Part shown: positions 157 to 27,167 of the stretch, in pieces
Layout of the letters: the number at the start of each line of letters is the position of its first letter
How positions within the stretch are numbered: the stretch's first letter is position 1
Assembly: GCA_035437565.1 (NCBI GenBank)
Contig: DAOMYL010000012.1
Location: 1-28,300 of the forward strand
Length of the DNA stretch: 28,300 nucleotides
Direction of reading: 5' to 3'
DNA from: a bacterium
GTDB taxonomy: Bacteria; Patescibacteriota; Gracilibacteria; BD1-5; UBA2023
Notes under the pieces: model-generated
The model's database searches: none
Told to the model about the DNA's origin: nothing
What the model saw: the letters and a program-made list of their open reading frames with translations, nothing else
Program-made: the position numbers and the translations under genes

Positions 157-729
157 ATGCGAATCCGAGTTGTTATGCTCGCCGTACTCATGTTCTTGCT
201 CGTTGCTGCGGCACTCGCACTGCCATTCGTCCTGCGTGCACCAGAATCAATTTTTCACACCTCTCCTATGCGAATTTCAAGCTCTGTGTTCGAACATGGA
301 TGACTGATTCCTGTACGCTATACCTGCGATGGAGAGAATATCTCTCCTCCCCTCTCGATCGCCGATGTGCCAGCGAATACCGTGTCGCTCGCACTCATCA
401 TGGATGATCCCGATGTCCCCACATCCGTCCGAGAGGACGGTCTCTGGGTTCACTGGGTCATCACAGATCTTGATGTAGCTCTCACGGAGATTCCCGCATC
501 CGTCGATCCAACGACACTGGGGAATCCCTGAGTGAACACTCGATGACTCCCGATCTATGGCGGTCCTTGCCCTCCTGATCGAGAGCACCGATACTTCTTC
601 CGACTCTACGCGCTCGATCGCCGACTCGATCTCTCGACCGGAGCAACGAAAGACCAGGTTGAAAAAGCTATGGACGGACATATAATCGCGGAAGCGACCC
701 TCATGGGTCGATATGACCGCCCGCGATAA
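157..729 (+). CDS. PEBP / YbhB-YbcL family (Raf-kinase-inhibitor-like) protein with N-terminal signal/TM segment; 3 UGA sense codons
   Basis: ATG 157, TAA 727-729, 191 codons. In-frame TGAs at 301-303, 529-531 and 544-546. The read-through product is MRIRVVMLAVLMFLLVAAALA..FEHG[G*]LIPVRYTCDGENISPPL..IMDDPDVP..LWVHWVITDL..GNP[G*]VNTR[G*]LPIYGGPCPPDREHRYFFRLYALD..ATLMGRY. It carries the PEBP signatures DPDxP, HW and GPxPPxxxHRYxF. The standard-code track shows only fragments. Confidence 0.8.
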
Positions 730-730
730 T

Positions 731-2095
731 ATGCAAAAAATTCATTTCATCGGTATCGGAGGTATCGGGACATCCGCTCTCGCACGATACTACCTCGCCA
801 CAGGATGGAGTGTCTCAGGATCAGATGCGTCCGATAGCTCGCTCCTACACGCGCTCGCCGATGAGGGAGTACGAGTTTTTCTTGGAGAGGACGCGAATAA
901 CCTCGATGATGATGCCGACCGTGTGGTATACAGCGAGGCGATCATTACCAAGCCCGATCTCTCAAAAGAAGAGAATCTCATGGCAAATCCCGAGCTTGCG
1001 AAAGCGCGGACGCTCGGGATAGAAAATCTCAGCTATCCGCACGCGCTCGCCGAACTCTTCAATGCAAAACAATTCGGAGTGGCAGTCACGGGGAGCCATG
1101 GAAAGTCTACGACCACCGCCATGCTCGGGACGATTTTATCAAGGACAGGGGGGTCGGCACTGGCGGGCACACTCGTTCCGGCATTCGGTGGACGAAATAT
1201 TTTGGTGGATTCTCACAGTGAAATATTCGCGATCGAGGCGTGCGAATATAAGCGGAGCTTTCTCGCGTATCACCCCACTATCACGGTTATTACCAATATC
1301 GATCTCGATCACCTCGATTACTACCGGGACCTCGAAGATTACATCAGTGCGTTTCGCTCTCTTTGCGCGCAGACTCGTGATTACGTTGTCATTGCCGCGA
1401 CGGATGCCCACTCTGCCAAGCTCGCTCAAGAGCTGCCAAATGCCGTGCGCGTATACGACTCATATTATAGTGTGCCGGATTTAGTGAGTGGGGATTTCCA
1501 GATGTTTTCGATCCCCGCACTCGACCTGCGCGTAAAAGGTGAGCATATGCTCGCGGACGCTCGCCTCGCCTACGTAACAGCGAGACTTCTCGGAATAGAG
1601 GAGTCGATTGTCGTGTCCGCTCTTGAATCATATTCGGGTTCGTGGCGGCGAGCAGAAATCGTGGGGACTACCGCGCAGGGAAATATCATCATGTCGGACT
1701 ACGGACACCATCCGAATGAAATCCGTCCCACACTCGCTGCAATCAAGGAGGCAAATCCAGAAAAAAAGCTCGTTGTGTGCTTCGAGCCGCACCAGTACTC
1801 GCGCACGATCGAGCTCCTGGATGGATTTCTCTCGAGCTTCGACGATGCGGATCTACTCATCATCCCGAGTATCTATTTCTCGCGTGATAAGCATGAAGAT
1901 GTAGAGGCAATGCCAGCAAAGCGGTTCGTCTCACTGCTCCAAGAAAAATATCCACACACCGTCTACGGCGAAGGGCTTGAGAATACCAGCACATGGCTCT
2001 CTCGGTATGATGAACAACATCCCGATACCTCTATCATACTCCTACTCGGAGCTGGGGCAGTCGACAGTCTGCGAGAGGGATTCGAGTACTGCTAA
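731..2095 (+). CDS. murC: UDP-N-acetylmuramate--L-alanine ligase
   Basis: The track ORF 713..2095 ends in TAA. The N-terminus MQKIHFIGIGGIGTSALARYYLATGWSVSGSD is the MurC-type GxGGxG fold. VTGSHGKSTTTAM is the Mur ligase P-loop, and NIDLDHLDYY plus a C-terminal Mur ligase domain follow. I prefer ATG 731, 1 nt after the PEBP stop, but ATG 713 is also possible. There is no internal TGA. Confidence 0.9.
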   Translation: MQKIHFIGIGGIGTSALARYYLATGWSVSGSDASDSSLLHALADEGVRVFLGEDANNLDDDADRVVYSEAIITKPDLSKEENLMANPELAKARTLGIENLSYPHALAELFNAKQFGVAVTGSHGKSTTTAMLGTILSRTGGSALAGTLVPAFGGRNILVDSHSEIFAIEACEYKRSFLAYHPTITVITNIDLDHLDYYRDLEDYISAFRSLCAQTRDYVVIAATDAHSAKLAQELPNAVRVYDSYYSVPDLVSGDFQMFSIPALDLRVKGEHMLADARLAYVTARLLGIEESIVVSALESYSGSWRRAEIVGTTAQGNIIMSDYGHHPNEIRPTLAAIKEANPEKKLVVCFEPHQYSRTIELLDGFLSSFDDADLLIIPSIYFSRDKHEDVEAMPAKRFVSLLQEKYPHTVYGEGLENTSTWLSRYDEQHPDTSIILLLGAGAVDSLREGFEYC

Positions 2096-2742
2096 AGATA
2101 TCGCTCGATCTCCCGTACTTCGGGCACGATGATAGTCGCGAGCCGCGCAATCTCGTCATGCAGATCGCGATCAATCGCGATCCCCCATGCAGCTTTTTCG
2201 AAAAGTGCGAGATCGTTTTCCCCGTTTCACACAACCAAGCAGGACTCCGCGGCGATACCGGTCTCATGCAGGTATTGTTCGAGTTGTTCGAGTTTCTTTG
2301 CGGATTGATCCGGATAATAGGTAAAATCGATCAGATTCCCGTTCGATCAGAAGATGAGTTCCGAATTCGCATACCAATGGGACACGCCGAGTCTCCGAGC
2401 CACAGATTCAACGTAGTGATCCATCGAACCGGATATGAGGCAGATCCGGTAACGATCTCATAAAGAGGCAATCATCGAGTCAACGCCATCGTCCAACGGG
2501 AACAAATCGAACATTTCGCGAAAGAGGTCTTTCCGGGCGTTGCCGGTCGCCCCCCAGAGAGCGACAAGCTCCGATTTTGCCTCGTTCAGATCCGTGATAC
2601 CTGCAATCATATCGCGATAGATTCGCTCATGCTCCGCAACGGACGCTCCGAGCTGTTCGGTCATCCGTAGCCACGAGACGCCGGGCGCGATCGTTCCGTC
2701 GATATCGAAAACGATCGTTTCGATCTGTTCTTTCGGAAGCAT
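2092..2742 (-). CDS. HAD-superfamily hydrolase, subfamily IB (phosphoserine-phosphatase-like); 3 UGA sense codons
   Basis: ATG 2742..2740, TAG 2094..2092, 217 codons. In-frame TGAs at 2458-2460, 2347-2349 and 2227-2229. Motif I is VFDIDGTIA, motif II is CLISGS, the Lys is in SAKKLEQL, and motif IV is LVV[G*]NGENDL. The track shows only the first 94 aa (2458..2742). The 3' end overlaps the murC stop by 4 nt (convergent). Confidence 0.8.
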
Positions 2743-2754
2743 AAAGAGTCTATG

Positions 2755-3441
2755 TTACGAGCGCAGGATACGCGCGGAGAGTGTTTCCATTCCGACATTC
2801 TTCCCGAGCGCGACCACTCCGGGATACGCCTCCACGTCGGAGAAGCTGAATCCTCGAAACTTCGCCCCCGGTCATCCGTAGATCGCTCATGCGATGGAAA
2901 AATCACCGTGCGCATCCCCGATAACCACGATATCCTCACTATCCGTATCGGGCGTATACACCTCAAATTTACTACCCGGAGCAAGTGTTGGAACCCCAGG
3001 AATCCATACGGGTTCGATCGGATTCGCAACAATCGAAATACTCTCATGCCTGGGGAGATCGTACTTCTGCCAAAATCATTCAATCAGCTCGGTAATACCA
3101 GAGCTGACAATTTGTATAGGAATGCCTCGACTAATGCAGGCATCAAGGAACTCGTGCAGTCATTCACGTGGAAGAAGCGTGCCCGCAGACTCGCAGATAT
3201 CCAGTACTTCTCGAACATGCTCTGTTACCTCGAATCGATGCATCAATGCAAGATGTTCGCCAAACCATCGACTCACTTCGGACCAGTTGCCCGCGGTCTC
3301 GTAGTGGTAATTGAGCTCGTACAGGCGATCGCGCTCGGTCATGTATTCGGCCGGGAACAATCAGGAATTGTAAAACGAGCTCCAGGTGCTCTTGGATGTC
3401 GGGGTCGTGAAGGTTTTGGAGAAATCAGCGATGATTTTCAT
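2755..3441 (-). CDS. HAD-superfamily hydrolase, pyrimidine 5'-nucleotidase (UMPH-1)-like; 5 UGA sense codons
   Basis: ATG 3441..3439, TAA 2757..2755, 229 codons. In-frame TGAs at 3361-3363, 3160-3162, 3076-3078, 2887-2889 and 2872-2874. The product is MKIIADFSKTFT..LPRE[G*]LHEFLDACISRGIPIQIVSSGITELIE[G*]FW..IVVIGDAHGDFSIA[G*]AIYG[G*]PGAKF... Its layout is a motif I-like DFxxT, a cap region, an (S)SG motif II and a GDxxxD motif IV. The track shows only a 66-aa piece (3160..3360). Confidence 0.6.
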
Positions 3442-5497: not shown

Positions 5498-5842
5498 ATG
5501 GAGGTCGATTCCTTTCTGTTTTTTATGTCGCTCGATCCCTCCCTCCGAATGCGGGTCCTCCAGGATCTCGCATCTCTCCCTACCGGATACGTGACGACCT
5601 ATTCCGCGCTCGGTCGGCGGCATGGTCTCCACCAACGGGCTATCGCCTCCATCATGCGCCACAACAAGGAACCGGACACCTACCCCTGCTACCGAGTCGT
5701 AGCGGCTGATGGGAGACTCTCGGGCTATGCTCTCGGATTACCGGAGAAGATACGGCGTCTTTCTGCCGATGGTATTATCATGAAAAGTGGCAGAGTGGAC
5801 GCTGGCAATATTTTGTCCGAATGGGAATGAAGGGACTTCTAA
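5498..5842 (+). CDS. MGMT-family (O6-alkylguanine-DNA alkyltransferase DNA-binding domain) small protein; UGA read through near the C-terminus
   Basis: ATG 5498. The track ORF stops at TGA 5828-5830, and under code 25 it runs 3 more codons (..SEWE[G*]RDF) to TAA 5840-5842. The core YVTTYSALG..YPCYRVVAADGRLSGYALG..KIRRLSADGI matches the C-terminal MGMT domain, with PCYRV in place of the canonical PCHRV. Confidence 0.7.
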
Positions 5843-6282
5843 CAATCTCCGTGATCTTCGGGGCTCTTGTCGCCGTATCGGTGTCTTTGCGGGGTATGAC
5901 ACTTCCGAATGAAGAGGTTTGTTTCGTGCCCGGCGGACCATGCTACCTTGTAGAAATCGCGAATGATCCGGGCGAGCGCGCCAGATGACTCATGGGGAGG
6001 ACATCGCTTGATCTCGATCGAGGTATGCTTTTCGTTTTCGAGACAGAAGAAGTCGCGAACTTCTGGATGCGCGATACGAGCATTCCCCTATATGCGGTAT
6101 GGATCGCTGGCGATGGTCGAGTCCTTGGTTCTACTGTCATGTCACCGTGTCCGGATGGGGCCATCGATTGTCCGAATTACCCCTCTCCCGCTCCGGTTCG
6201 TTGGGTCTTGGAGATACCGATCGGAGCAGTCGTGCCGGAGGCAGGGTCTGTCATGACCCTCTCAGGATCTGCCGGAGATTAG
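5821..6282 (+). CDS. DUF192 (COG1430) family protein with N-terminal signal/TM segment; 1 UGA sense codon
   Basis: ATG 5821 (or ATG 5827, which forms an ATGA overlap with the TGA of the upstream gene). TAG 6280-6282. In-frame TGA at 5986-5988. The product is MGMKGLLTISVIFGALVAVSV..YLVEIANDPGERAR[G*]LMGRTSLDLDRGMLFVFE..FWMRDTSIPLYAVWI. It carries the DUF192 GLM(x)R, GMLF and FWM(k/r)(n/d)T boxes. The track shows only 5992..6282. Confidence 0.8.
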
Positions 6283-7139
6283 CCGAGATCGTTTCTTAGT
6301 ACCCTGAGCATCTCGCCACGGGACTCCATGAGCGCGAGAATTCGTCCATCGAACGAGAGAAATACATTCACCCCTTCGGAAATACCCCAATGGTTTTCTA
6401 TTGGCATTCCATTGGAAAGCGGTGCCAGCACCGACTCTTCCGTCTCCAGGATCGGCATACCAGAGAAGACCTCCGGGAGTATGAGTTGTGCGAATCATTC
6501 GTCGGACGAAGACAGGCGATCCGCTTCGAACGGCCCAATCGCCATACGGTCGAGTCATGTAAGATAGCCGCGCACCCCCATGGCCTGACCAATATCATCC
6601 GCGAGCGTCCGAATATACGTACCCGATGATACCCGGGCTCGTAGGACGCATTCAGGAAACTCGTATCGAAGAATCTCAATGGAATAAATCTCCACTTCAC
6701 GAGAGGGCATAGCCACATCGTGTCACTTCCGAGCGAGCTCGTACGCCCGTTTTCCGTCTATCCAGATTGCGGAGAATACCGATGGAACTTGGGTGATTCT
6801 TCCGATAAATCGCTCGCGCAAAAGCGCATCGAGTTTCTCTCGGGAAAACTCGTTTCGAGCATGCTCGATCGCAGAAGGATCACACGACTCTGGTTCGGAT
6901 TCCAGATCTCCGGTTGCGGTCCATCCGTCAAACCGGATAGATGCCTCGTAGGTTTTATCGGTATGAGGAAGAAAAGAGAGGAGTCTCGTCGATCGGTCGG
7001 TTGCTACGAGCAAAAGGCCCTCGGCCAAAAGGTCGAGGGTACCGGCATGGCCGATTTTTTTGATGCCGCGATCTCGAGCAAATCGCCGGATGCATTCGAA
7101 GCTTGAGACCCCGCGCGGTTTATGGATGAGTGCGAACAT
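6279..7139 (-). CDS. truB: tRNA pseudouridine(55) synthase; 3 UGA sense codons
   Basis: ATG 7139..7137, TAA 6281..6279, 287 codons. In-frame TGAs at 6723-6725, 6555-6557 and 6495-6497. The product is MFALIHKPRGVSSFE..IGHAGTLDLLAEGLLLV (catalytic Asp box)..KRAYELARK[G*]HDVAMPSREVEIY..SSGTYIRTLADDIG... The track ORF 6723..7808 is this frame, artificially extended upstream through lepB. Confidence 0.88.
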
Positions 7140-7140: not shown

Positions 7141-8013
7141 CTATGTCTCCGAAGTGACCGTCCCACTGGAAGCACTTTCGCTCTTGCCAGAGAGGAGGGC
7201 ATTGATCTCCGGATACTCCCAGGTGCTCGCTGTGGAGAAGAAGCGCGGTGCATGCAGCCAAGACCAAGAGCCGGGCATGATGTACGATCCGTCTTCAAAC
7301 ATATCGAAATGCCCGAGGTGGACGAATACCTTGCCAACGATATGGTCACGAGGAACATAGTGGCGAGCGTCCGAGGAAAAGCAGGAAAGGAAGCACGAGC
7401 GCGAGTCCGAAGAATTGCTCCGGTTATCGCCCATGAGAAAGTACTCCCCTTCCGGCACGACAAATGTATCGTTATCGGTTCCGGGAGGGAGGAAGGTTTT
7501 ATGATTGTTCTGCTCGGAGAGATAGGCTTCGTTGAGCAGCACCTCTGTCTCGAGTCCGGATGGTGTGAGATACACTTCTCCCCCTTCGAATCGAAGCTTG
7601 TCCCCAGGCAGGCCAATAACACGCTTGATATAAAATTCCTTGGCATCGTGTACGCCTGGATGGAATACAACGACATCTCCGCGATCTGGAGATCCGACAG
7701 AGACAATATCATCGAGGTGCAGGTAGGAGAATTTATCAGCGATAATGAATTCTCCGTCATGGTACGTGGTCTCCATGGAACTCCCGCGTATCTCGAACGG
7801 CGTAGCAATAAGGAATCGTACCGAGATAATGACTGTCACGATGACGACCAAATCACGAAGAAAAAGATTCACATCACGCAGGGAAATGCGGTTTGTGGAT
7901 TCGAAGGATCCTTCCGGCGCATCCGAACGGGATTCCTCGGAGGAGTGCACAAATCCGTCGTTCGAGTCCTTTTTCTCTTCTTCCATATCGGACGTGTTGG
8001 TTAGGAGTTTCAT
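7141..8013 (-). CDS. lepB: Signal peptidase I
   Basis: TAG 7143..7141. It has a TM segment [15 protein letters not shown], the Ser box GSSMETTY, the Lys box KRVIGLPGD, and [11 protein letters not shown]. The start is uncertain. ATG 8013 overlaps the secA tail, ATG 7986 (MEEEKK) is also possible, and the track start 8055 lies inside secA. Confidence 0.85.
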
Positions 8014-10745
8014 CCGTGGCAGTGCTTGTATTTCTTCCCACTTCCGCATGGACATGGATCATTGCGACCAACGACCGGAGTGCTCGAATCCGGTGCCGGA
8101 ACGGAGGCAGTATCCGCTACGCGGTAGACCCGGATACCGTCGGAGGTGGTTGGCTTACTCGTCTGCGCCATTGCGATTGGGGCGGTGTCTTGCGGAGCTT
8201 CGGCAGTATCGCGGGCGAGTGCAAGACTATCGAGATCTACGTCATTTTCTGCCACGGTCTGTTCGGGTTTCGCGGCGAGTAATCATCGTACGACCTTGAA
8301 GTTGATTTCTCGTAAGAGATCCACGAAAATCGAATATGCGCGGTCCTTGTAAACCAGGAGCGGATTCTTCTGGGCGTATCCCTCGAACGCAACTTCCTGT
8401 CGCAAGCCGGACATACGCTCGATGTGTCCCATCCAGAGAATATCGGTCGACTGGAGAGCGAGACCTTTTTCGAATATGCGGAATCGCTCTTCGCCGAAGA
8501 CCGACGAAAGGGTGGCGATCCTCGTTTCAAAATTCGCGAAAACATGGGCGATAAGCTCTTCCTTGCTGCCGTACGGAGCAAGCTCCTCGGTTCCCACGAG
8601 GTCCGTTCCCGCAAATTCACGCAGCGTATTGACAAGCGATACTAGATCCCATTCATCGGGATGCGGGGATTCAATTTCCACATCCACGATTGTTGTTATC
8701 TCGCCCTTCGCAGCCGAAAGAATCTCCTCATGGATGGAGTCGGATTCCAAGAACCGCCTGCGCCGAGCGTAGATTATGAGACGATGCTGATTGAGCACAT
8801 CATCAAACTCAAGAATGTGCTTGCGAATATCGAAGTTGCGGCCCTCCACCTGCTTCTGTACTGAGTCAATGCGACGGGTGAGCATGCGACTCTCTGCGAG
8901 TGGTTCATCATCCGGGAGGCTCGTGAACGAATTGAATATCCCAAAGAGCTTGTCACCCCCGAAGATTCGCATGATATCATCCGTTGGAGATACCATGAAT
9001 TGAGACATTCCAGGGTCGCCTTGGCGGCCGGATCGTCCACGCAATTGGTTGTCGATGCGGCGGGTCTCGTGTTTTTCTGTCCCGATGACCCAGAGTCCGC
9101 CAAGAGGAAACTCGTTACCAGCTACGGTAATGGATCCTGAGAGTGAGCGAACATGGTCGTCAATCTTGATATCGGTTCCGCGACCGGCCATGTTCGTGGC
9201 GATGGTGACGGCTCCTGTGAGACCCGCGCGACCAATGATCTCAGCTTCGCGCGCATCCTGTTTGGCATTGAGTACCTCGTGTGGCACACCTGCTCTCGAG
9301 AGGAGTCCGCTCAGGTACTCGGACTTTGCTACCGATACAGTCCCTACAAGGACTGGTTGTCCCGCTTCGTGCGCTGCCTTAATGAGCTTACCGAGAAATT
9401 CGAATTTTCCCTTCTCATTCTTGAAGAGCAAATCTCCTCGGTCGATACGCGCGATGGAACGGTTCGTTGGTACGACTACCACCTCGAGTCCGTAGATCCG
9501 AAAAAACTCTTCTTCTTCGGTCTTGGCTGTACCAGTCATTCCGGCGAGCTTGTCGTAGAGGCGGAAAAGGTTTTGGAACGTGATTGATGCAAGTGTCTTG
9601 GATTCTTGCTTGATCTCCACCGCTTCCTTGGCCTCTATGGCTTGGTGGAGGCCATCCGAGTAGCGGCGACCGGAGAGGACGCGACCAGTATGCTCATCGA
9701 TGATCATCACTTCGCCATCGCGTACAAGATAGTCTACATCGAGCTTGTAGGCATAGCTTGCCTTCAGAGCATTCTCAATGTGATGAATGTCGTTGTAGTG
9801 GTCCGAGACGAAAATGTTTTCGATTCCGAGGACCCGCTCAAGCTCGCGAATACCGTCCTCGAGCAGGATTACGTTCTTGTGTTTCTCATCGAGCTTATAG
9901 TGGGTACCGACCTGGAGCTGCTTGGCGAGTGCTGCGAACTTCACGTACTTGGTCGTTGGCTCCTCGTCTGGTGCGGAGATGATGAGCGGCGTACGAGCCT
10001 CGTCCACCAGGATCGAGTCCACTTCGTCCACGATAGCGTAGGAGAGATTTCCGAGCACCTGAAATTCCCGCTTGGGTGCCATGTTATCCCGGAGGTAGTC
10101 GAATCCGAGTTCGTTATTGGTGACATACACCACATCCTTGGCATAGGCTTCTTTTTTCTGTGGGAGACGCTCCGAATGCGTCACGATCCCGACTGAGAGA
10201 CCGAGAGTTTGATAAATAATTCCCATCTCAGAAGCGTCACGGCGGGCAAGGTAGTCGTTTACCGTCACCACGTGCACGCTCTCTCCTGCGAGCGCGTTCG
10301 CGTAGGCCGCAATGGTTGCTACGAGTGTCTTTCCCTCTCCGGTGCGCATCTCAGCGATATTGCCATCGTTGAGAGCGAGCGCGCCGAGTATCTGCACATC
10401 GAACGGCACCATATTCCACACGAACGGGGTGTCACGTCCGGGAATTTCGAACGACTGACCAGCAATTATGCGGCACGCAGTCCGGTGTAGCGCAAAAGCC
10501 TCGACAATCACGGAATCAACGAGTTCTTTGCGTCGCTTCTTGCGGAGGTCACGATCGGCGATATCCGCAAGCTCTGTAAACCGTCCGCGCAAGCGATTTG
10601 TCTCAGCGCGCACGTCATCGACCGTGCGGATGGTCTGTGCGTAATGCTCTTCCTGGGCTATAATCGACTCCAGAGTGCGACGGTAGCGGGCAAGAATTTT
10701 CTCGTTTGGGTCGCCGAATATGACTCGGTAAATCGTCTGAAGCAT
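8001..10745 (-). CDS. secA: Preprotein translocase ATPase SecA; 2 UGA sense codons in the C-terminal tail
   Basis: ATG 10745, TAA 8003..8001, 915 codons. In-frame TGAs at 8283-8285 and 8010-8012. It has the Walker [12 protein letters not shown] and [19 protein letters not shown]. The separate 81-aa track ORF 8010..8255 is in the same frame and carries the SecA zinc-binding tail [14 protein letters not shown]. Confidence 0.92.
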
Positions 10746-10760: not shown

Positions 10761-12065
10761 TTACGCGAAGAACGTGTCAACAACCTTCTTGTAGCCGAGA
10801 CGCGCCCGCATATCTTCGTAGTGCTGGTCTCCCGGAACGAGCTTCTCAATGAGTCGCTTGCGGACCTCCGCGTTGGAATAATCTTCGAGCAGAGTCTTCA
10901 CCTCGGCGTCCACCTCGGCATCGGAGACTACGGTCTTGCGGTCAGCCTGGAGATGCTTGAGAATGAGCTCTGCCTTGAGGCGACGCTCTGCTTCTGGCTT
11001 GATTGCCTCCTCGCGGTAGACCTCTTCGGTCTTGCCGATGTGGGCGAGGTAACTCTCCATGCGCAAGTTCTGGGACTGAAGACGGGAAGCTTGCTCGCGG
11101 TAGAGCTTATCGATCTCAAGCTCCATGAGCTTCGGCCCGATCTCTACGGTCATATGCTTGAGAAGCTCATCGAGAAGTGCCTCCTCGTCTTTGGATCGTG
11201 CGGTACGCTCGCGCTCAGCGAGGATCTCGCCCTTCAAGATAGCGCGGAGACCCTCCATATCGGTCTTCTTGCCGCGAAGCCCCTCAATGAACTCAGGTGT
11301 CCATTCGGGCCCCTGCGGAGCTTCTACGCTATGAACCGTGACCTCGAAGTAGACCTTTCGTCCCTTGAATTCATCGCTATGATAGTCTTTGGGGAACGTA
11401 ATGGGAAATCCAATCGTCTCATCGGACGAGTGTCCGGCAACAGCTTCCTCGAATCCTGGAATGAACTGTCCGCTTCCGAGGGTGAGCGAGTATCCGCGAA
11501 CCTGCGTCTCGGGAATCGCCTTGCCACCCTTCTTGTCGTATCCTTGCGCATCGATCTCTACACGATCTCACATCTCAATCTTCACAGGGGATCCCTCCTT
11601 GGCGGTGAATTTCGTGAATCGTCCTTCGATAGCCTTCACGGCAGCATCGACATCTTCATCGGATACCGATACCTCGGTCCGATCGAGCTTGATCTTCGCA
11701 ACCTTCTTCTCGTCCATCGAGACTTCCGGAAGCACCTCTACTTCGAAGATTGCCTCAAGTGGGGAAAAAGTTTTCACCTCCTTGATTTCTCCGGCGGACA
11801 CGGGAGTGATTCCAGACTTCGAGATAATCTTGGAGTAGGCGTCATTGAGGTAGGCCTCTACTGCCTGTCCTTCAATGAATCCAGCGGAGTATTCGCGCTC
11901 AATGACATCGGCCGGTACCTCTGACCCAGGACGAAATCCCTTGATCTTGGCATGTTTTCCGATCTCTGCAATGGTCTTGTCACGCCATTTGGCCATTTCT
12001 TTCGCGCTCTCCTTCACAGTAATGGAGACGGTGTTCGATGAACTTTTCTCGACGATGATCTGCAT
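10761..12065 (-). CDS. tig: Trigger factor; 1 UGA sense codon
   Basis: ATG 12065..12063, TAA 10763..10761, 435 codons. In-frame TGA at 11568-11570. The N-domain has KIKGFRPGSEVP (GFRxGxxP ribosome-binding box). The read-through segment ..KIEM[G*]DRVEIDAQGYDKKGGKAI..LTLGSGQFIPGFEEAVAGH is the FKBP-type PPIase domain. The C-domain is the track ORF 10761..11258. Confidence 0.9.
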
Positions 12066-14538: not shown

Positions 14539-15198
14539 CTAGGGTTTATGGATAAAGATATTCACGAAGGTATCACCAGAATTCATAGAGGAATATCCGT
14601 GACTGTCTACGGAGAATCATGTCGATCGAAGAGCGGCGAATAGGTCTTCCGGAAGCCAGTAGATATATCGTTTGACAATGCCATCGGACGATCGACTCGG
14701 CTTCTCTACGATCTCTGGAGCATTCACATCGCTGCGGCATTTCACGCTCACATAGGCCGAGCCTCCCGGCCGGAGAAGCCGATACATCGAATGAAATGTT
14801 TTCTCCGCTTGTATCCGATCGATGTGCACGATTGCTGCGCATGCCCAGATCCCATCGAACGATTCCAGAGAAAAGCACTCGTCAGCACGGGCGATGTCGC
14901 CGAGGTGCACATCTGCATACGGGAGACTCTCGCGTGCCCGCACTACCTGTCGGCGGGAAATATCTATACCAGCTACCTCGTACCCGCGAGAATGAAAGTA
15001 CCGCATGTCCCACCCGGAACCGAAACCGAGATCGAGAACACGCCCGTGGAGCGGAATACCGGCAATGAAACGGTCATGATCCTCCGTTCACCGGCGTTCA
15101 CGATACATTGCGGTATTGTCGGCGAAGACATCCGCTGATTCATCGTAGATCGCGGCGATGGCAGCGAGCATCGCATCGCGTTTCGCATCGGTCGTCAT
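14539..15198 (-). CDS. Class I SAM-dependent methyltransferase; 2 UGA sense codons
   Basis: ATG 15198..15196, TAG 14541..14539, 220 codons. In-frame TGAs at 15088-15090 and 14617-14619. The read-through restores the missing motif I, ..RERR[G*]TEDHDRFIAGIPLHGRVLDLGFGSGWDMRYF..GYEVAGIDIS. Post-I/II regions follow, with LRPGGSAYV and a C-terminus ALRST[G*]FSVDSHG. The track shows only 14617..15006. Confidence 0.75.
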
Positions 15199-15905: not shown

Positions 15906-16988
15906 CTAGGAAACCGATCCCTCGGCAGCCCGCTGGAGCTTTTCCGTCTGATCGGCAACGGCGAGCGATTCCACGATATCTGCGAGATCTCCGGCCATAC
16001 GGACCGGAATATTGGAGAAATTCGCGCCGATCCGGTGGTCGGTGATACGATCCTGCGGAAAATTGTATGTGCGGATCTTCTCGCTGCGGTCTCCGGTCCC
16101 CACCTGCGCGAGACGGTTCGCACCGATCTCGGCTTGCTGCTTGGCGAGCTCGAGAGCATAGACACGGGACTTCAGAATCATGAGGGCCTTTTGTTTGTTT
16201 TGGATCTGGCTTCGGCCGTCCTGACACTCCACCACAACGCCACTCGGGAGGTGGACCATTCGCACGGCGGAGTTCGTTTTGTTGACGTGCTGTCCTCCAG
16301 CCCCGGATGCTCGGGCGACCGTAATCTCGAGATCCTCTTCGCGGATTTCTACCTCCACATCTTCTACCTCTGGTAGGATTGCCACTGTAATGGTACTCGT
16401 ATGGACGCGCCCTTTGCTCTCAGTCTCGGGCACGCGCTGTACACGATGGGTCCCGGATTCGTATTTGAATCGCGAGTATGCCCCGTCTCCACTGATTTTG
16501 GCGACCACTTCCTTGTATCCGCCAGATTCGCTCTCGGATTCATCAAGCGTCTCTACCGAAAACCCCGATGCCTTGGCGAATATGACATAGGCATCGAAGA
16601 GCTCTCGAGCGAAGAGAGCAGCCTCTTCCCCTCCCGCTCCGGCACGGACCTCGAGGATGATGTTTTTATCATCGTTCTCGTCTTTCGGCAAGAGCGCGAT
16701 CTTGATGTCTTCTTCCAACTGCTCGATCCGCGGTAGGAGAGCGTGCATCTCTTCCCGGGCAAGCTCCAGCATCTCCGGGTCAGATTCTGTTTCGATGATG
16801 GACTTACTCTCCGTGAGGTCTTTATTGGCGGTCTTGTACTCGCGGTAGAGTGTTACGACCCGTTCGAGGCGTTTCTTTTTTTTCATCAGGTCTTTCAGGC
16901 GCGAAGTATCGCTGTATACGGCCGGATCGGCGAGATCGTTTTCGTATCGGGCGTACTCATCGAGCAGGGAGTCGAGTTCAAACTTCAT
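15906..16988 (-). CDS. prfA: Peptide chain release factor 1 (UAA/UAG-specific)
   Basis: Track ORF, 360 aa, TAG stop. The RF1-type P-x-T anticodon-like motif [17 protein letters not shown] has PET at 16430..16422. The GGQ motif [11 protein letters not shown] is at 16298..16290. There is no SPF (RF2) motif. Confidence 0.9.
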
Positions 16989-16996: not shown

Positions 16997-18019
16997 TTAG
17001 GGGACGATAACGGAATCAAGTACGGCGACGATGATGGATTCGACGCTCACGTCATCGGAGAGTGCATCGAAAGATCGGTGAATACGATGACGGAGAATAT
17101 CGGGAGCAAGTTCTTTAATGTCTTCAGGGATCACGTAATCGCGTCATTCCATGAATGCGAGAACCTTGGCAGCCTGGACGAAGGCGATGCTCGCGCGGGG
17201 GCTCGCCCCAAGATGGATATACGGACGAATCGAAGCAAGCTTTCCCTCCGATCCGAATCGCGTTGATCGCACGATATCAGCAATATAGCTGTACATGGAA
17301 TCGTGGACGAAGACAGTCTCACGGACGAACGTCTGAATTTCGAGGAGCATCTCACGAGAAAGAGCGGGAGCAACCTCTGCAAACGATGGCGTTCATTTCA
17401 TGATTCCAATCTCCTCGTCCTTAGAAGGATAATCCACCACGGTCTTGAAGAGGAATCGATCCTGTTGGGCTTCAGGGAGAGCATAGGTCCCGTCCTGTTC
17501 TATGGGATTTTGTGTCGCGAGCACCACGAATGGCGCATCGAGAGAGTATGTTGTATCAGCGATCGTGACGCGACGTTCTTGCATCGCTTCGAGCAGGGCT
17601 GATTGTACCTTGGCGGGGGCGCGGTTGATCTCGTCTGCAAGAAGAAAATTCGTGAAGATCGGACCCTTTCTCGTCTCAAACATGCCGGTATTTTGCCGGT
17701 AAATCTGCCCGCCGATAATATCGGATGGGAGAAGATCCGGCGTGAATGATACGCGCGCAAACGAACAATCGACCGAGCGCGCGACTGACGAGAGCGCGAG
17801 GGTTTTTCCGAGTCCCGGAACCCCCTCCAGGAGTACGTGCCCTCCAGCAAAGAGCGCGATAAAAACGTTTCGTACTAGACGTTCTTGTCCTACAACGATG
17901 GTTCCAACCGACCGCATCGCGGCGTTTGCCGCTTCGCGGTAGGCATCGTGGCGAGCGGTAATTTCTGGATTTGTCTCTCTCATTGGTGCGTCAGTAAGGA
18001 GGTTAATCGCGTCAGGCAT
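16997..18019 (-). CDS. MoxR-family AAA+ ATPase; 2 UGA sense codons
   Basis: TAA 16999..16997. In-frame TGAs at 17393-17395 and 17144-17146. It has Walker [12 protein letters not shown], Walker [10 protein letters not shown], and [22 protein letters not shown]. After read-through come ..[23 protein letters not shown][G*][21 protein letters not shown]. The start is uncertain: ATG 18019 overlaps the upstream gene by 17 nt, and ATG 17983 or 18028 are alternatives. Confidence 0.85.
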
Positions 18020-18848
18020 ACTTGGCATTGCGGACAGAATCAAGTAGCGATGCGATTTTGATCCGTTCCTCCGAGTCCGGCTCAAGCGCGAGGATCTCGG
18101 CGGTCGTGAGAGTACGGACATCGCGACCGAATCGGCGTCCAAGCGTCGCGAAAATTGCATTGGGTCCATCTGTCGACAGCGGAAGCGGAACGACTCATGT
18201 CGGTGGCGAGTCGCTAACGCAAAGTGATTTTGTGACGGGAGGTCTCCTTGAAGTGAGTGCTATGGTCGCATAGAGCGCGATGAGCAGAAGACACAATGTC
18301 CCGAGCACGGGGAGCGCGTATTCCATTGTCGATACTGACTTCTTGGAATCGGAGAAGCTTATGAGATTCTCCGGGTCAGTATCAGACAAAGATGTTTTCG
18401 CCTCTGCGACAACGACAGAAATCGGATCTGACTGCATGATTTGCCCATTCTCATCTTCCACCACAACAGGACCGAGCGTGAACTGTCCAGATCTCATGGG
18501 GGCGAGTTCCAGATAATAGACCGTGTCGTAGGTGGGGACGCCCCGGAAATCCACGAAATCGTTTTGCTCTTCTCGCTCACTGAGCTCGTGAAATTGTTCG
18601 ATGCCTGGAATCTCGATGGAGAGTCCCTCGAATACGTCTCATCATTTCTGAACGATCGAGACCTCAAGTGTGAAGGACTCTCCCATCTCGATCCGATCAG
18701 CACTTGCACGAGCATCGAACTCGAACGTCACGGAGTCTGCCGACTCAACTCCATATTCTATTGGGTCGCTCACGGCAGATTCTTGGGCGTTCGCATGGGG
18801 CACAAGTACCCACGAAAGCACAACGAGAACAAGAAGATGTCGAAACAT
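18003..18848 (-). CDS. BatD-like / MoxR-operon-associated membrane protein (signal peptide, extracytoplasmic beta-rich domain, one TM, cytoplasmic tail); 4 UGA sense codons
   Basis: ATG 18848, TAA 18005..18003, 282 codons. In-frame TGAs at 18642-18644 and 18639-18641 (tandem), 18195-18197 and 18012-18014. The signal peptide is [21 protein letters not shown]. It continues ..[16 protein letters not shown][G*][G*][35 protein letters not shown]. The TM is [22 protein letters not shown], and the tail is ..[24 protein letters not shown][G*]RD. The family call comes from architecture and operon context, not a strong motif. Confidence 0.55.
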
Positions 18849-18857: not shown

Positions 18858-19445
18858 TTAGTTGATACCGAGGACGTATGCTGGCGGAATATTACGCCAG
18901 GTCTTTGAGAGCGTCCGTATTGGGAGTCAGTCGTAATATGGAATCATGACAGATGGAGCATACGTGAACATGCGGAATTTTGCTCCGGTTTCGGTATTTC
19001 GGCGTATCGAAGAGATCATTCTCGTGAGATCTGGCTTCGGAATGGCGGGAGTCGGGAGACCGCTCACGATCGCCCCAACCTCCCGGTCCGAGAGATTGTA
19101 GCGATCGAGGATTGGCTCCAGATTACCAGCGGAATCCTCTACCACGACCACGTTTGAGCGTTCGTGGTACTTGCCACGTAGATACTCAGCATAGTGCGGA
19201 TCGATTTCGATCGTGACGAGCATACACTCCTGGTGCATACGCGCAATGATCTCATCCGTAAATATTCCCGTTCCCGGACCAAATTCAACGATCAGGCGGG
19301 TTGAATCAAAATCAATGCCCTCCATCATGGCTCGAGCAAGATAGCGCGAACTCGGAGCTACCGCTCCCACCCGGAGTGGGTGGGAGAAATAGCGCGAGAG
19401 AAATTTCAACAGATCCGAGGAGCGAGCGCGTTTTTTTGTCGTCAT
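18858..19445 (-). CDS. Class I SAM-dependent methyltransferase (COG3963 / rRNA-adenine-dimethylase-like fold); 1 UGA sense codon
   Basis: ATG 19445, TAA 18860..18858, 196 codons. In-frame TGA at 18927-18929. It has HPLRVGAVAPSSRYLARAM and motif I LIVEFGPGTGIFT. The read-through tail is ..MIPYYD[G*]LPIRTLSKTWRNIPPAYVLGIN. The N-x-PPA-x-V ending is typical of this family and lies beyond the TGA. Confidence 0.7.
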
Positions 19446-23560: not shown

Positions 23561-26500
23561 TTACTCCTCTTCCGTGACGGCAGCATCTACTGCGGGAGTG
23601 GTATCGGCTCGCACATCGGAGGCGAGAGCCTCGTTCTCGAGATCGAATTGTCCTTCCAGACGTCCAAGTTCGAGGTACCGTTCGAGCATTTCGCTCTCCA
23701 GAGTTTCGAGCTCCTGGGAGTCGAGAAGTTCCACCTTGAGGTTGAGTGCCTGCAACTCGCGCAGGAGGACATTGAACGATTCTGGGATATTCGGCCGCTT
23801 GATCGGCTTGCGCTTGACGATGGCTTCGTACGACTGGATACGTCCGTTGATGTCGTCGGACTTGATCGTGAGCATCTCCTGGAGAATATTGGCAGCACCG
23901 TATCCTTCGAGTGCCCAGACCTCCATTTCTCCGAGACGCTGTCCTCCGTTCTGAGCCTTACCTCCGAGTGGCTGCTGGGTGACCATGGAGTAGGGTCCGA
24001 CCGAGCGAGCATGGATTTTGTCCTCGACGAGGTGGTGGAGTTTGAGCATATACTTGATTCCCACCATGGTACGCTCCTTGAACGGTTCTCCGGTCTTACC
24101 ATCGAAGAGCTGAACCTTCCCGTCCGAGTCCATGCCGCACTCATTCATGAGCCGTGTGATAGTCTCGACTGGCACTCCGTTGAGGATGGGCGATGCCACC
24201 TTGATACCGAGCATGTTCGCCACGGCTCCGAGGTGGGTCTCCAGAATCTGTCCAATGTTCATGCGCGAAACGACTCCGAGCGGGTTCAGGATGATGTCTA
24301 CCGGCTGACCGTCAGCCATGAACGGCATATCCTCCGCAGGGACAATACGTGCCACTATTCCCTTGTTTCCATGGCGTCCAGCCATCTTGTCTCCGACTTC
24401 GATCTTGCGGGTCTGAGCGACGTAGACTTTTACCTGTTTGAATACTCCGGTCGGGAGGTTGTCGGCGTTCTCGCGCTTGAGCACGTGCACCTGAATAACC
24501 TTACCACCTGATCCCGAGGGCAACACGAGCGACGAATCCTTCACGTCCTTGGACTTGTCTCCGAAGATCGCGCGAAGCAGACGCTCTTCCGGCGAGAGCT
24601 CGATCTCCCCCTTCGGAGTGACCTTACCAACGAGGATGTCTCCCCCTTGTACATATGCCCCTATTCGGACAATACCTTCCTCATCGAGATCTTTGAGCTT
24701 TGCAGCCGAGACATTCGGAATATCGTAGGTGGTCTCTTCCGGGCCGAGCTTGGTCTCACGGACATCGAGTACGTACTCGGTAATATGGATCGAGGTGAAT
24801 GCATCATTCTCCACGAGTCGGGAATTGAGGATGATCGCATCCTCGAAGTTGTATCCTTCCCATGGCATGTAGGCAACACGGAGATTCTTTCCGAGGGCGA
24901 GTTCTCCGTTTTCAATGGATTGTCCATCCGCGAGTACCTGTCCCTTCATTATCTTATCCCCCGCAGAAATGCGCGGTGTCTGATGAATGAGCATATCGTG
25001 GTTCGATCGCTCGAAAGTCTTGAGCTCGTAGATCTCCTTTTTTCCACTCTTGTAAAGCAGGGAGATGTGTTTGGCATCGACTCCAATGACCTCTCCGTCT
25101 TCCTCTGCAAGGATGACGTATCCCGATCCTTCTCCGATGGCACGCTCCATACCAGTCCCAACGATCGGGGCTTCCGGACGCAAGAGCGGTACAGCCTGGC
25201 GCATCATGTTGGTTCCCATTTCCGCGCGGGTGGCAGCATCGTGCTCGATGAACGGGATGAGCGATGTGGTCTCGCTCATGATCTGCTTCGGCGAAACATC
25301 GATGTGCGTGACTTCTCCGACATAGGCGACGGTCGGCTCATTGGCACGGCGCGATCCGATGCGGGTGGAGATGAAGTTTCCGTATTCATCGAGCTCGGTA
25401 TTCGCCTCGGCGATGGTGAGCGATCGCTCGTCATAGGCTCCGTAGTAGTCGTATTCATCGGTAGTGAATCCGCGAACCATGATCGTATCAGCCTTGATGG
25501 ACTTCTGTATCTGCTTGGCAGCAGCCTCAGAAATATACTCCTTATCGGCGACAATTGTCTTCCCATCATCCCCAATGATATCATCGAGGGCGATACGGTT
25601 TACGGCCGAGGTTCCGTCATTCGGTACGCTATGTGCAATCTTTCGGTACGGTGTCTGGATGAATCCGTGCTCGTCGATCTTCGCGTAGGTCGAGAGGTGG
25701 AGTACCAGTCCGATATTCGGTCCTTCCGGCGTAGCGATAGGACAGATGCGTCCGTACTGCGTGGGGTGGACGTCGCGCACCTCGAAGCTCGCGCGCTCGC
25801 GCGTGAGTCCGCCGGGGCCGAGAGCCGTCACGCGTCGCTTATGTGCGATTTCCGAGACGGGGTTGGACTGATCCATAAACTGCGAGAGCTGGCTCGTACC
25901 GAAGAATTCCTTGAGTACGGCGATAATCGGCCGGGAGTTGATAAATGTTCCCGGCGTTGCCTCGGCGAGATTCACGATCGTCATGCGATCCTTCGCGATC
26001 TTTTCCATACGGGCGAGTCCCACCTTGATCTTGTCGTACACGAGCTCTCCCACGGAGCGCACGCGGCGGTTTTCGAGGTGGTCAATGTCGTCCCAATGGT
26101 GTCCATCCCGAGCTTCCATAAGCGAAAGCAGGTATCGGAGTCCATTGGCGAGATCCTCCTTGGAGAGGAAAGAGTCACGATTCTCGTCTTCAATATTCGT
26201 CTTCCCGAGCTTGCGGTCGATCTTCATGCGGGCCACCGCCCCGAGCTCAAACTTCTTCGCATCGAAAAACGTGGTCTGGAAAAGGTCGGCAACGCGCTCC
26301 TCGGTCCCGAGATCCCCCGGACGCAGGAGCTTGTAGATGGCGTGCATAGCCTCCATCTTGGTCTTGGCGCGATCCTTCTCGAGCGTGGGAGCAATGTACT
26401 TTGAGATGAAATCCGGTTCGTCCTTGAACAGCGCGATGATCTCGGCATCACTCTCATATCCGTAGGCGCGAAGCAAGACGGTGAAAGGAATCTTTCGCTT

Positions 26501-27079
26501 CTTGTCGATTTTTACATTGATGACACCTCGCCGCTCGATCTCCACCTCGAACCAGCTTCCCTTCTGCGGAACCATTTTCATGGCGAAAAATCCGGAGAAA
26601 CGAGAATCCGGCGTGAAGAAGATACCAGTAGAACGGATGATCTGACTGACAATGATACGCTCGACTCCATTGACGATGAAGGTCCCGCGTTCGGTCATGA
26701 GCGGCATTCCTCCCATATAGACGTCCTGTTCTTTTAGTTCGCCGGTCTCTTTGTTGAGCATCTCAAGACGTACCTTGAACGGTGCCTCGTAGTTGAGATT
26801 CTTACGCTTGCAGTCGAGAATATCGTACTTCGGCTCTTCGATCATGAGATCGAGGAACTTGATTTCGATTTTTTCTTCGGAGAAGTCATTGATCGGGAAT
26901 GTCTCGTCGAACGCTCGACGGAGTTTTCCATTGAGAAAATCCTTGTACGAGTTGATCTGGACTTCGATGAGTTCCGGAGTGGGAATGACTGACGTATCGT
27001 CCGTGAAAAAGTAGCGTCACTGCACATCGTAAAGTGCCCCTATCTCCTGCGGGGTTGGCAGCTTCTTCGCCCGGTTCAT
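23561..27079 (-). CDS. rpoB: DNA-directed RNA polymerase subunit beta; 1 UGA sense codon at codon 21
   Basis: ATG 27079..27077, TAA 23563..23561, 1173 codons. In-frame TGA at 27017-27019. The N-terminus restored by read-through is MNRAKKLPTPQEIGALYDVQ[G*]RYFFTDDTSVIPTPELIEVQINSYKDFL.., carrying the conserved L(I/V)EVQxxSYxxFL box. Downstream motifs include GDKMAGRHGNKGIVARI and PLGGKAQNGGQRLGEMEVWALEGYGAA. The track ORF starts at an internal Met (26845). Confidence 0.95.
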
Positions 27080-27167
27080 TGGCATGCGGGTAAGCGGAAA
27101 GTGAATATGCAAGAAAAGGCGCGGACCTTCCCCCTCAACACAATCGTGAGTCCGTCGCGATGGGCCA

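What the first reader, a model, noticed from the sequence alone, without database searches (positions are those of the whole stretch)
2227..2229. The recoded UGA falls on conserved glycines, pointing to code 25 (UGA=Gly) rather than code 4 (Trp) or selenocysteine
The cleanest case is the HAD motif IV, LVV-[TGA]-NGENDL at 2227-2229, where the family consensus is G-D-G-x-N-D. Other TGAs also sit where, from my knowledge of the families, glycine is the consensus. DUF192: RAR-[TGA]-LMGR (GLM box, 5986). TruB: YELARK-[TGA] (AR-x-G, 6723). Trigger factor: EM-[TGA]-DRVEIDAQG (G-D-x-V-x-ID-x-G, 11568). MoxR: AFME-[TGA]-RDYVIPEDI (G-R-x-Y-V-x-P-x-D, 17144). UMPH-1-like HAD: PRE-[TGA]-LHEF and GDAHGDFSIA-[TGA] (3160, 2887). 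Methyltransferase: ALRST-[TGA]-FSV (a-G-F-x-v, 14617). PEBP: FEHG-[TGA]-LIP and NTR-[TGA]-LPIYGGPCPP (301, 544). Tryptophan would be implausible in these tight turns and phosphate-binding loops. The sites are far too numerous for selenocysteine and are not redox-cysteine positions. Table 25 is so far known only from Candidatus Gracilibacteria (BD1-5) and Absconditabacteria (SR1), so this also gives a strong taxonomic hint. The DNA is not AT-rich by eye, unlike typical code-4 organisms.
Basis: partly seen in the sequence, partly recalled or inferred. Interest (0 to 1): 0.85.

Follow-up and report, generated by a model that had tools for sequence, protein, structure and literature searches.

The report
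UGA read as glycine (code 25)

Summary
All ten quoted TGA codons are in frame at the stated coordinates. I count 29 in-frame TGAs in 24 genes, and every gene ends in TAA or TAG.

Glycine is the meaning that fits:
- Substituting each of 14 amino acids at the TGA sites, Gly gave the highest summed Pfam scores (38 bits above Trp).
- At 2227 (HAD motif IV), 6723 (TruB) and 5986 (DUF192), every aligned solved structure has Gly.
- In the closest relative (87% identical U32 peptidase, syntenic), 8 of 11 comparable window TGAs are GGN codons. RpoB 27017 is GGA in three other relatives.
- In about 70 relatives, 1120 of 1596 in-frame TGAs align to window glycines and none to Trp.

The nearest relatives are labelled Gracilibacteria and are themselves recoded. 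One carries a tRNA(UCA) with the glycine identity set. The window encodes RF1.

Not shown: this genome's own tRNA-Gly(UCA), and loss of RF2.

Site 2887 is not a Gly column, and 17144 is a mixed G/R column.

This is code 25 in its known clade, so it is already known. Side points: GC is unusually high (53%), TGA is rare and avoided in housekeeping genes, and NCBI proteins for this organism are truncated at TGA.

The parts
2227..2229 (-). The flagged in-frame TGA, residue 172 of the HAD-IB hydrolase, in motif IV (LVV-x-NGENDL)
   Evidence: Sequence read. Gly in all 5 aligned solved phosphoserine phosphatases (vGDGaND). With Gly at the TGA sites, Pfam HAD scores 13.0 and Hydrolase 15.1 bits higher than with Trp; in that construct these two models also score the UMPH-like gene's TGA sites.
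2092..2742 (-). HAD-IB (phosphoserine-phosphatase-like) hydrolase gene. TGAs at 2458, 2347 and 2227.
   Evidence: Sites 2458 and 2347 fall in variable or gapped columns (K/R; V/N/gap).
2755..3441 (-). UMPH-1-like HAD gene. TGAs at 3361, 3160, 3076, 2887 and 2872.
   Evidence: Pfam UMPH-1 match is weak at 27 bits. PDB alignments are weak: 3160 aligns to G in human and R in fly; 2887 to D/S; the other sites are variable.
157..729 (+). PEBP/YbhB-family gene. TGAs at 301, 529 and 544.
   Evidence: The closest relative L088 has GGC, GGG and GGC at these sites. Structure 3n08 has G at 529 and 544.
5498..5842 (+). TGA at 5828, four codons before the TAA/TAG stop.
   Evidence: The relative's protein ends one codon before this TGA.
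5821..6282 (+). DUF192 gene. TGA at 5986.
   Evidence: Gly in 2/2 structures. GGG in L088.
6279..7139 (-). truB gene. TGAs at 6723, 6555 and 6495.
   Evidence: 6723: Gly in 5/5 structures, and GGC/GGA in relatives. 6555 and 6495 fall in variable columns (K, E, A, Y; P, V).
8001..10745 (-). secA gene. TGAs at 8283 and 8010.
   Evidence: 8283: GGT in L088. In 77 relatives the column holds Ala 32, Ser 21, Gly 11 and TGA 1, with no Trp. L010 has a TGA at the same position. 8010 lies two codons before the stop, in the variable tail (H or K in relatives).
10761..12065 (-). Trigger factor gene. TGA at 11568.
   Evidence: GGN in 6/6 relatives. Gly in Vibrio and Glu in E. coli structures.
14539..15198 (-). 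Class I SAM methyltransferase gene. TGAs at 15088 and 14617.
   Evidence: 14617 is GGA in L088. No comparator was found for 15088.
16997..18028 (-). MoxR-type AAA+ ATPase gene. TGAs at 17393 and 17144.
   Evidence: The 17144 column holds R 34, G 26, K 5 and H 5 in 74 homologues. The AAA_lid_2 model prefers G. 17393 is variable.
18003..18848 (-). BatD-like gene. TGAs at 18642, 18639, 18195 and 18012.
   Evidence: BatD model scores: G 28.9, S 28.1, A 27.9, C 25.3, W 25.2 bits. No close comparator was found. 18012 lies two codons before the stop.
18858..19445 (-). Small methyltransferase gene (weak OlsG/PmtA-like match). TGA at 18927.
   Evidence: No comparator for the site.
23561..27085 (-). rpoB gene. 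Its single TGA is at 27017 (residue 23, x-RYFFTDD).
   Evidence: GGA in 3/3 relatives at 73-76% identity.
15906..16988 (-). prfA, peptide chain release factor 1 (reads UAA/UAG). Contains no TGA.
   Evidence: NCBIfam RF1 equivalogs score 483 and 476 bits, above their cut-offs. The RF2 model scores 276 bits, below its cut-off of 370.

Best explanation
The organism uses NCBI translation table 25. UGA is a sense codon for glycine, and only UAA and UAG terminate.

Shown here:
- UGA lies in frame in 14 of the 24 genes.
- Wherever a comparison is possible, UGA behaves like the organism's GGN glycine codons.
- The nearest relatives share the recoding.

Inferred, not shown for this genome:
- Decoding is by a dedicated tRNA-Gly with anticodon UCA, probably derived from tRNA-Gly(UCC) by one anticodon change.
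- Release factor 2 has been lost, leaving RF1 (encoded in the window) as the only class I release factor.

In this high-GC member UGA is a rare glycine codon: 29 TGA beside 615 GGN codons, about 4.5% of glycine codons. It is largely kept out of housekeeping genes.
For: 1. There are 29 in-frame TGAs, and all 24 genes stop at TAA/TAG. Pfam domains span the TGAs.

2. Substitution test. All TGA sites were set to one amino acid and scored against Pfam.
- Over 11 non-redundant families: G 843.4 bits, A 827.0, S 822.9, W 805.7, C 803.2.
- Over 6 families: G 523.6, T 503.8, N 503.0, Q 501.2, D 501.1, K 500.0, E 500.0, R 497.7, P 489.3, L 487.3.

3. Solved structures have Gly at 2227 (5/5), 6723 (5/5), 5986 (2/2), and at 529 and 544 in the closest PEBP structure.

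4. The closest relative L088 is syntenic, with U32 peptidase 87% and SecA 83% identical. It has GGN at 8 of 11 window TGA sites. RpoB 27017 is GGA in 3/3 other relatives.

5. Calibration on L088: window GGN aligns to Gly at 87%, TGA to Gly at 73%, and TGG to Trp at 68%. TGA aligns to Trp at 0%. Every non-Gly residue aligns to Gly at 3.6% or less.

6. Reverse test: 1596 in-frame TGAs in the related loci (mostly in secA) align to window G 1120 times and to W 0 times.

7. The nearest relatives are named Candidatus Gracilibacteria or '(gcode 4)' BD1-5 bins.

8. Relative L041 carries a tRNA(UCA) with G1:C72, C2:G71, G3:C70 and U73. It matches Rfam tRNA at 45.9 bits. Those four elements are the criterion for tRNA-Gly(UCA) used in PMC8629427.

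9. The window's release factor is RF1.
Against: This genome's own tRNA-Gly(UCA) was not found. There is no tRNA in the window, nor in the further roughly 8.5 kb of the 42.5-kb source contig that could be fetched.

Absence of prfB (RF2) cannot be tested from one contig.

About half of the TGA sites lie in variable columns or have no comparator, so they say nothing either way.

Three TGAs lie within the last five codons of their genes. There a stop reading cannot be excluded by homology.

No protein-level (peptide) evidence exists here.
Confidence: 0.95

Rival explanations
1. Code 4: UGA is read as tryptophan, as in Mycoplasmatales and several insect endosymbionts.
For: UGA to Trp is the commoner bacterial reassignment (PMC8629427). 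Some relatives were historically labelled 'gcode 4'.
Against: No aligned homologue has Trp at any window TGA site that could be compared. Trp scores 37.7 bits below Gly in the Pfam substitution test. Window TGG aligns to Trp at 68% in the closest relative, whereas TGA aligns to Trp at 0% and to Gly at 73%. Relatives' TGAs never align to window Trp, 0 of 1596.
Confidence: 0.01
2. UGA is read both ways: mostly as glycine, but still acting as a partial or context-dependent stop near gene ends.
For: Three of 29 TGAs lie within the last five codons (secA, the BatD-like gene, the Ogt-like gene), against 0.38 expected (P = 0.007). In the Ogt-like gene the relative's protein ends one codon before the TGA. 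TGA is strongly avoided in housekeeping genes.
Against: The pattern is equally explained by harmless short read-through extensions, for example former stops or stop-loss mutations running to the next TAA/TAG. In secA the closest relative has a sense codon (CAT) at that site and a protein of the same length. Essential proteins (RpoB, SecA, TruB, trigger factor) need efficient read-through at internal TGAs. The count is only three sites.
Confidence: 0.04
3. Standard code, with pseudogenes, assembly errors or selenocysteine insertion explaining the in-frame TGAs.
For: Public gene calls made with table 11 split these genes.
Against: The sequence is identical in the separate public assemblies that carry it. 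The frame and the homology continue across every TGA. Fourteen of 24 genes would be broken, including rpoB, secA, truB and tig. There are 29 sites, none of the compared ones aligns to Cys, no Rfam family (so no SECIS family) was found, and Cys scores 40 bits below Gly.
Confidence: 0.005

Closest known systems
NCBI translation table 25 (Candidate Division SR1 and Gracilibacteria code; Campbell et al. 2013 and Rinke et al. 2013, as cited in PMC8629427 and in preprint 10.64898/2026.05.24.727570)
   Same: UGA is a sense codon for Gly, and UAA/UAG are the only stops. The nearest relatives are Gracilibacteria/BD1-5-type bins that share the recoding. One relative carries tRNA(UCA) with the Gly identity set. 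RF1 is present.
   Different: GC is 53% here and 57% in the closest relative, against 23-46% in almost all other related loci fetched. That is at the top of the 0.21-0.53 range given in PMC8629427. UGA makes up only about 4.5% of glycine codons, whereas low-GC relatives have dozens of TGAs in secA and its neighbours alone.
BD1-5/SN-2 bacterium with UGA recoded to Gly (Hanke et al. 2014, PMC4032931)
   Same: The same kind of inference, judging from the paper's title: an uncultured BD1-5-type bacterium from an enrichment culture that recodes the stop codon UGA to glycine (I read only the title and the start of the abstract).
   Different: A different organism and habitat. This window comes from a bioreactor-sludge metagenome.
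Translation table 4 (UGA = Trp; Mycoplasmatales and several endosymbionts)
   Same: UGA is a sense codon, and RF2 is expected to be dispensable.
   Different: The amino acid differs. The Trp reading was tested here and failed.
Selenocysteine recoding of UGA
   Same: An in-frame UGA is translated.
   Different: Selenocysteine is site-specific, depends on a SECIS element, is rare, and sits at Cys-type redox positions. Here there are 29 sites in 14 genes, at Gly or variable columns, with no SECIS.

Membership tests
Genetic code 25 (UGA = Gly) | UGA occurs in frame inside conserved protein-coding genes (it is a sense codon) | tested here: met
   29 in-frame TGAs in 14 of 24 genes, with Pfam domains spanning them.
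Genetic code 25 (UGA = Gly) | UGA positions correspond to glycine in homologues | tested here: met
   Gly scored best of the 14 amino acids tried in the Pfam substitution tests. Gly is invariant in structures at 2227, 6723 and 5986. The closest relatives have GGN at 9 of 12 comparable sites. The calibration shows TGA behaving like GGN. In the reverse test 70% of relatives' TGAs align to window Gly.
Genetic code 25 (UGA = Gly) | UAA and UAG remain the stop codons | tested here: met
   All 24 genes end at TAA or TAG near the C-terminus expected from homologues.
Genetic code 25 (UGA = Gly) | The genome has a tRNA(UCA) with glycine identity elements (G1:C72, C2:G71, G3:C70, U73) | not testable with these tools
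   No tRNA lies in the window or in the fetched part of the source contig. Such a tRNA is present in relative L041. The rest of the MAG could not be fetched.
Genetic code 25 (UGA = Gly) | Loss of release factor 2 (prfB) | not testable with these tools
   Only RF1 is seen in the window. Absence of prfB needs the whole genome.
Genetic code 25 (UGA = Gly) | Belongs to the Gracilibacteria/Absconditabacteria clade (GTDB class JAEDAM01) | tested here: inconclusive
   The best SecA, U32 and RpoC relatives are labelled Candidatus Gracilibacteria, Peribacteria (name mapping) or '(gcode 4)' BD1-5 bins, and have in-frame TGAs at Gly positions. No formal phylogeny or GTDB classification was run.
Genetic code 4 (UGA = Trp) | UGA positions correspond to tryptophan in homologues | tested here: not met
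   No Trp at any window TGA site that could be compared. Trp scores 37.7 bits below Gly. None of 1596 relative TGAs aligns to a window Trp.
Selenocysteine insertion | Few UGA sites, at Cys/Sec redox positions, with a SECIS element | tested here: not met
   29 sites, none aligned to Cys in the comparisons made; Cys scores 40 bits below Gly. No Rfam hit.

The most novel reading that the evidence does not exclude
The window and its 57%-GC relative may form a high-GC branch of the code-25 clade in which GC pressure is purging UGA. UGA is about 4.5% of glycine codons, runs at 0.65 per 1000 codons in housekeeping genes against 8.3 in other genes, and is over-represented just before TAA/TAG stops. 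If so, this lineage would be a natural intermediate towards loss of the codon, or one in which UGA keeps a residual, context-dependent termination role. That would test codon-capture ideas, which assume low GC drives UGA reassignment.
Probability: 0.1. Interest if true: 0.55.

Novelty: already known. Interest (0 to 1): 0.25.

Why it matters
Biologically, this is a confirmation. UGA = Gly is the established code of the Gracilibacteria/Absconditabacteria clade, and this organism sits among its recoded members.

The practical point is annotation:
- The same contig is in NCBI (GCA_002335145.1), JGI (3300006417) and ENA.
- Gene calls on those copies split 14 of the 24 genes of this window at TGA.
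- NCBI nr holds the 165-aa trigger-factor fragment HRI36549.1 and the 138-aa TruB fragment HRI36544.1, under the organism name 'bacterium'.
- Neither the full-length Gly translation nor the Trp translation of trigger factor is in a collection of 15 billion proteins.
- The gTranslate preprint describes this class of error: genomes that NCBI classifies only as Bacteria get table 11.

The genome is also a useful high-GC test case for tools that detect the genetic code. UGA is rare here, so the coding-density signal that some of those tools rely on should be weak.

Tried and rejected
- A concatenated 'polyprotein' query to the search for homologous proteins returned only two MoxR hits. It wasted one of the three searches.
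It returned 80 distant MoxR homologues rather than close relatives. These were useful only for the two MoxR columns.
- Synteny around secA in the GTDB species representatives is poor, so those 80 loci informed few window sites beyond secA.
- The RpoC search did not return the 87%-identity relative. As a result the MT1-37, MoxR, BatD-like and MT2 sites have no close comparator.
- The 72%-identity RpoC relatives are not syntenic downstream of rpoC.
- The part of the source contig beyond the window that could be fetched carries no tRNA.
- A pattern scan of metagenomes for tRNA-Gly(UCA) was considered and dropped.
- No paper mentions GCA_002335145.
- I checked whether CGA/CGG are also reassigned, as proposed for Absconditabacteria in PMC8629427. 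Here they align to Arg/Lys like the other Arg codons.

Full report
**Observation**

Bases 2227-2229 are 'tca' on the + strand, which is TGA on the - strand, in the context LVV-TGA-NGENDL. The window has 52-55% GC throughout, no tRNA gene and no Rfam family at gathering score.

I delimited ORFs by TAA/TAG only and chose frames by codon-usage score and homology. This gives 24 genes, nearly all on the - strand:
- PEBP, murC, a HAD-IB hydrolase, a UMPH-1-like HAD, a LigT-like gene, a U32 peptidase and an Ogt-like gene
- DUF192, truB, lepB, secA, tig, a membrane protein, lspA and tyrS
- a methyltransferase, clpP, prfA, moxR, a BatD-like gene and a second methyltransferase
- rpoC, rpoB and a secreted protein

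In total 29 TGAs lie in frame, in 14 of the 24 genes and 9216 codons, and every gene ends in TAA or TAG. Pfam confirms the families, and the domain matches run across the TGAs.

**Origin**

The exact TyrS protein, and a table-11 fragment of RpoB, are found on public contigs:
- NCBI GCA_002335145.1 (DDBV01000020.1, 32 kb)
- JGI 3300006417 (42.5 kb)
- ENA assemblies
- a Logan assembly of SRR1506951, a bioreactor-sludge metagenome

These copies are 100% identical to the window over the parts they cover, so the TGAs are not assembly errors. In the gene calls on these copies the genes are split at the TGAs: trigger factor 165 + 165 aa, SecA 820 aa, MoxR 208 + 68 aa, TruB 138 aa.

**Which amino acid: Pfam substitution test**

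I replaced the TGA sites with one amino acid at a time and scored against Pfam. The first construct held 24 sites, the second 10.
- Over 11 non-redundant families: Gly 843.4 bits, Ala 827.0, Ser 822.9, Trp 805.7, Cys 803.2.
- Over six families: Gly 523.6, against 487-504 for D, N, R, K, E, P, T, Q and L. Gly was best in each of the six families.

**Which amino acid: solved structures**

Phmmer alignments to solved structures give the following.
- Gly in every aligned chain at 2227 (five phosphoserine phosphatases), at 6723 (five TruB) and at 5986 (two DUF192).
- Gly at 529 and 544 in the closest PEBP structure, 3n08.
- Site 11568: Gly in Vibrio and Glu in E. coli trigger factor.
- Other sites (2458, 2347, 301, 6555, 6495, 17393) fall in variable columns.
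- No aligned residue is Trp or Cys.

**Which amino acid: the closest relative**

A search with the TGA-free U32 peptidase found an 87%-identical protein on a 394-kb JGI contig. Its locus, L088, is syntenic with the window and has 57% GC. The window's TGA codons correspond there to:

| Window site | Codon in L088 |
|---|---|
| 301 | GGC |
| 529 | GGG |
| 544 | GGC |
| 5986 | GGG |
| 6723 | GGC |
| 8283 | GGT |
| 11568 | GGA |
| 14617 | GGA |
| 6555 | AAG |
| 6495 | CCG |
| 8010 | CAT |

That is 8 of 11 sites as GGN. RpoB residue 23 (27017) is GGA in three relatives at 73-76% identity.

As a calibration on the same alignments:
- window GGN codons align to Gly 87% of the time;
- window TGG aligns to Trp 68% of the time;
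- no non-Gly residue aligns to Gly more than 3.6% of the time;
- window TGA aligns to Gly 73% and to Trp 0%.

**Which amino acid: the reverse test**

Eighty secA loci from GTDB species representatives were fetched. About 70 have in-frame TGAs. Their 1596 aligned TGAs fall on window Gly 1120 times (70%) and on window Trp never. The nearest of them (57-61% SecA identity over the full length; 59-64% best segment) all carry internal TGAs at Gly positions. One, UBA5532, has TGA at the very SecA position (821) where the window does. Loci with no in-frame TGA in secA are the more distant ones, at 48% best-segment identity or less (42-46% over the full-length secA alignments), with one closer exception: L004 (56% best-segment, 54% full-length identity) has none among its 907 codons.

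Seven are clean glycine positions in the closest available homologues: 2227, 5986, 6723, 11568, 14617, 301 and 544.
- 17144 is a mixed column: R 34, G 26, K 5 and H 5 in 74 diverse MoxR proteins, and N in 2r44.
- 3160 is weakly supported: Gly in human cN-III and Arg in fly, at E about 0.02-0.05.
- 2887 aligns to Asp/Ser and is not a glycine column.

A mix of invariant-Gly and variable columns is what a glycine codon should show.

**Mechanism**

This part is inferred from what is established for this code (PMC8629427; preprint 10.64898/2026.05.24.727570): a tRNA-Gly with anticodon UCA decodes UGA, and RF2 is lost.

In the window, the release-factor gene is RF1. The RF1 equivalogs score 483 and 476 bits, above their cut-offs, and the RF2 model falls below its cut-off. 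This genome's tRNA could not be reached: there is none in the window or in the fetched part of the source contig.

A relative, L041, does carry a tRNA(UCA): GCGGGGG...CCCCCGC-U-CCA. It has G1:C72, C2:G71, G3:C70 and U73. It scores as an ordinary tRNA in Rfam. Those four features are the glycine-identity criterion used in PMC8629427.

**Rivals**

- Code 4 fails on every comparison above.
- Selenocysteine, pseudogenes and assembly errors fail on several counts: 29 sites in 14 genes (essential ones among them), identical sequence in separate assemblies, no Cys columns, and no SECIS.
- One small residual possibility is dual use of UGA near gene ends. Three TGAs lie within the last five codons (secA, BatD-like, Ogt-like), against 0.38 expected (P = 0.007). 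Short harmless read-through extensions explain this equally well, and the closest relative has a sense codon at the secA site.

**Comparison with what is known, and novelty**

Table 25 is described for Absconditabacteria (SR1) and Gracilibacteria (BD1-5). In GTDB these form class JAEDAM01.

The window's relatives carry those names. PMC8629427 already gives a GC range of 0.21-0.53 for the clade. So this is the known code in its known clade.

What is unusual is only a matter of degree:
- GC is 53% here and 57% in the closest relative, against 23-46% in almost all other related loci.
- TGA supplies only about 4.5% of glycine codons.
- TGA is strongly skewed away from housekeeping genes: 0.65 against 8.3 per 1000 codons (Fisher p = 4e-9).
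- CGA and CGG behave as Arg, with no sign of the further reassignment proposed for Absconditabacteria.

**Practical consequence**

NCBI nr holds truncated products of this organism under the name 'bacterium' (HRI36549.1, HRI36544.1). Neither full-length translation of trigger factor exists in a 15-billion-protein collection. This fits the class of table-11 misassignments described in the gTranslate preprint.

**Dead ends**

- The polyprotein homology search.
- Poor synteny in distant relatives.
- No literature mention of the assembly.

Noticed in passing
window 10761-12065 and 6279-7139; NCBI proteins HRI36549.1 and HRI36544.1: Public records hold this organism's proteins truncated at TGA: trigger factor at 165 aa and TruB at 138 aa, under the organism name 'bacterium'. 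The full-length Gly and Trp translations of trigger factor are absent from the 15-billion-protein collection. Gene calls on the NCBI, JGI and ENA copies of the contig are split at TGA.
   Followed up: yes
window 2092-3441 (HAD-IB and UMPH-1-like genes): This gene pair is absent from the syntenic site in the closest relative L088, where the LigT-like gene directly adjoins murC. It has the highest TGA density in the window, 8 in 444 codons. It may be a lineage-specific insertion or a loss in the relative.
   Followed up: partly
window 8010 (secA), 18012 (BatD-like), 5828 (Ogt-like): Three of the 29 TGAs lie within the last five codons of their genes, against 0.38 expected (P = 0.007). In the Ogt-like gene the relative's protein ends one codon before the TGA. 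These may be read-through extensions after an older stop, or residual termination.
   Followed up: partly
whole window: TGA is almost excluded from housekeeping genes: 4 in 6194 codons, with rpoC, tyrS, clpP, prfA, murC and the U32 peptidase gene having none. Other genes have 25 in 3022 codons (Fisher p = 4e-9). This is consistent with a rare, probably slowly decoded codon.
   Followed up: yes
whole window; L088; L001-L080: The window (53% GC) and its closest relative (57% GC) stand far above the other related loci, which have 23-46% GC apart from one Thermomicrobiales outlier at 64%. TGA use in secA broadly falls as GC rises, from roughly 20-40 in secA of the lowest-GC relatives (up to 60 when neighbouring genes are counted) to 0-8 in the 41-46% GC relatives and 2 here.
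   Followed up: partly
whole window (CGA 119, CGG 91 codons): CGA and CGG align to Arg/Lys in relatives like the other Arg codons. There is no sign of the CGA/CGG to Trp reassignment proposed for Absconditabacteria and some Gracilibacteria in PMC8629427.
   Followed up: yes
Its end overlaps the DUF192 start by 22 bases. moxR and the BatD-like gene also overlap, by 26 bases (18003-18028).
   Followed up: partly
L010 (UBA5532, DINU01000018.1), SecA residue 821 equivalent: A relative at 57% SecA identity has a TGA at exactly the SecA position where the window has one (8283). In most relatives that column is Ala, Ser or Gly.
   Followed up: no
L084 6631-6927; L086 579-1295 (source contig beyond window position 28300): Resolvase and recombinase genes lie a few kb beyond the window's right end. 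The gene calls in that stretch differ between the JGI and NCBI copies of the contig, which may mark a mobile element or an assembly junction.
   Followed up: no
L041 5302-5380 (-): ARAGORN labels the relative's tRNA(UCA) as tRNA-SeC. Rfam scores it as an ordinary tRNA, and its acceptor stem and discriminator carry the glycine identity set. Automatic pipelines would mislabel it.
   Followed up: yes
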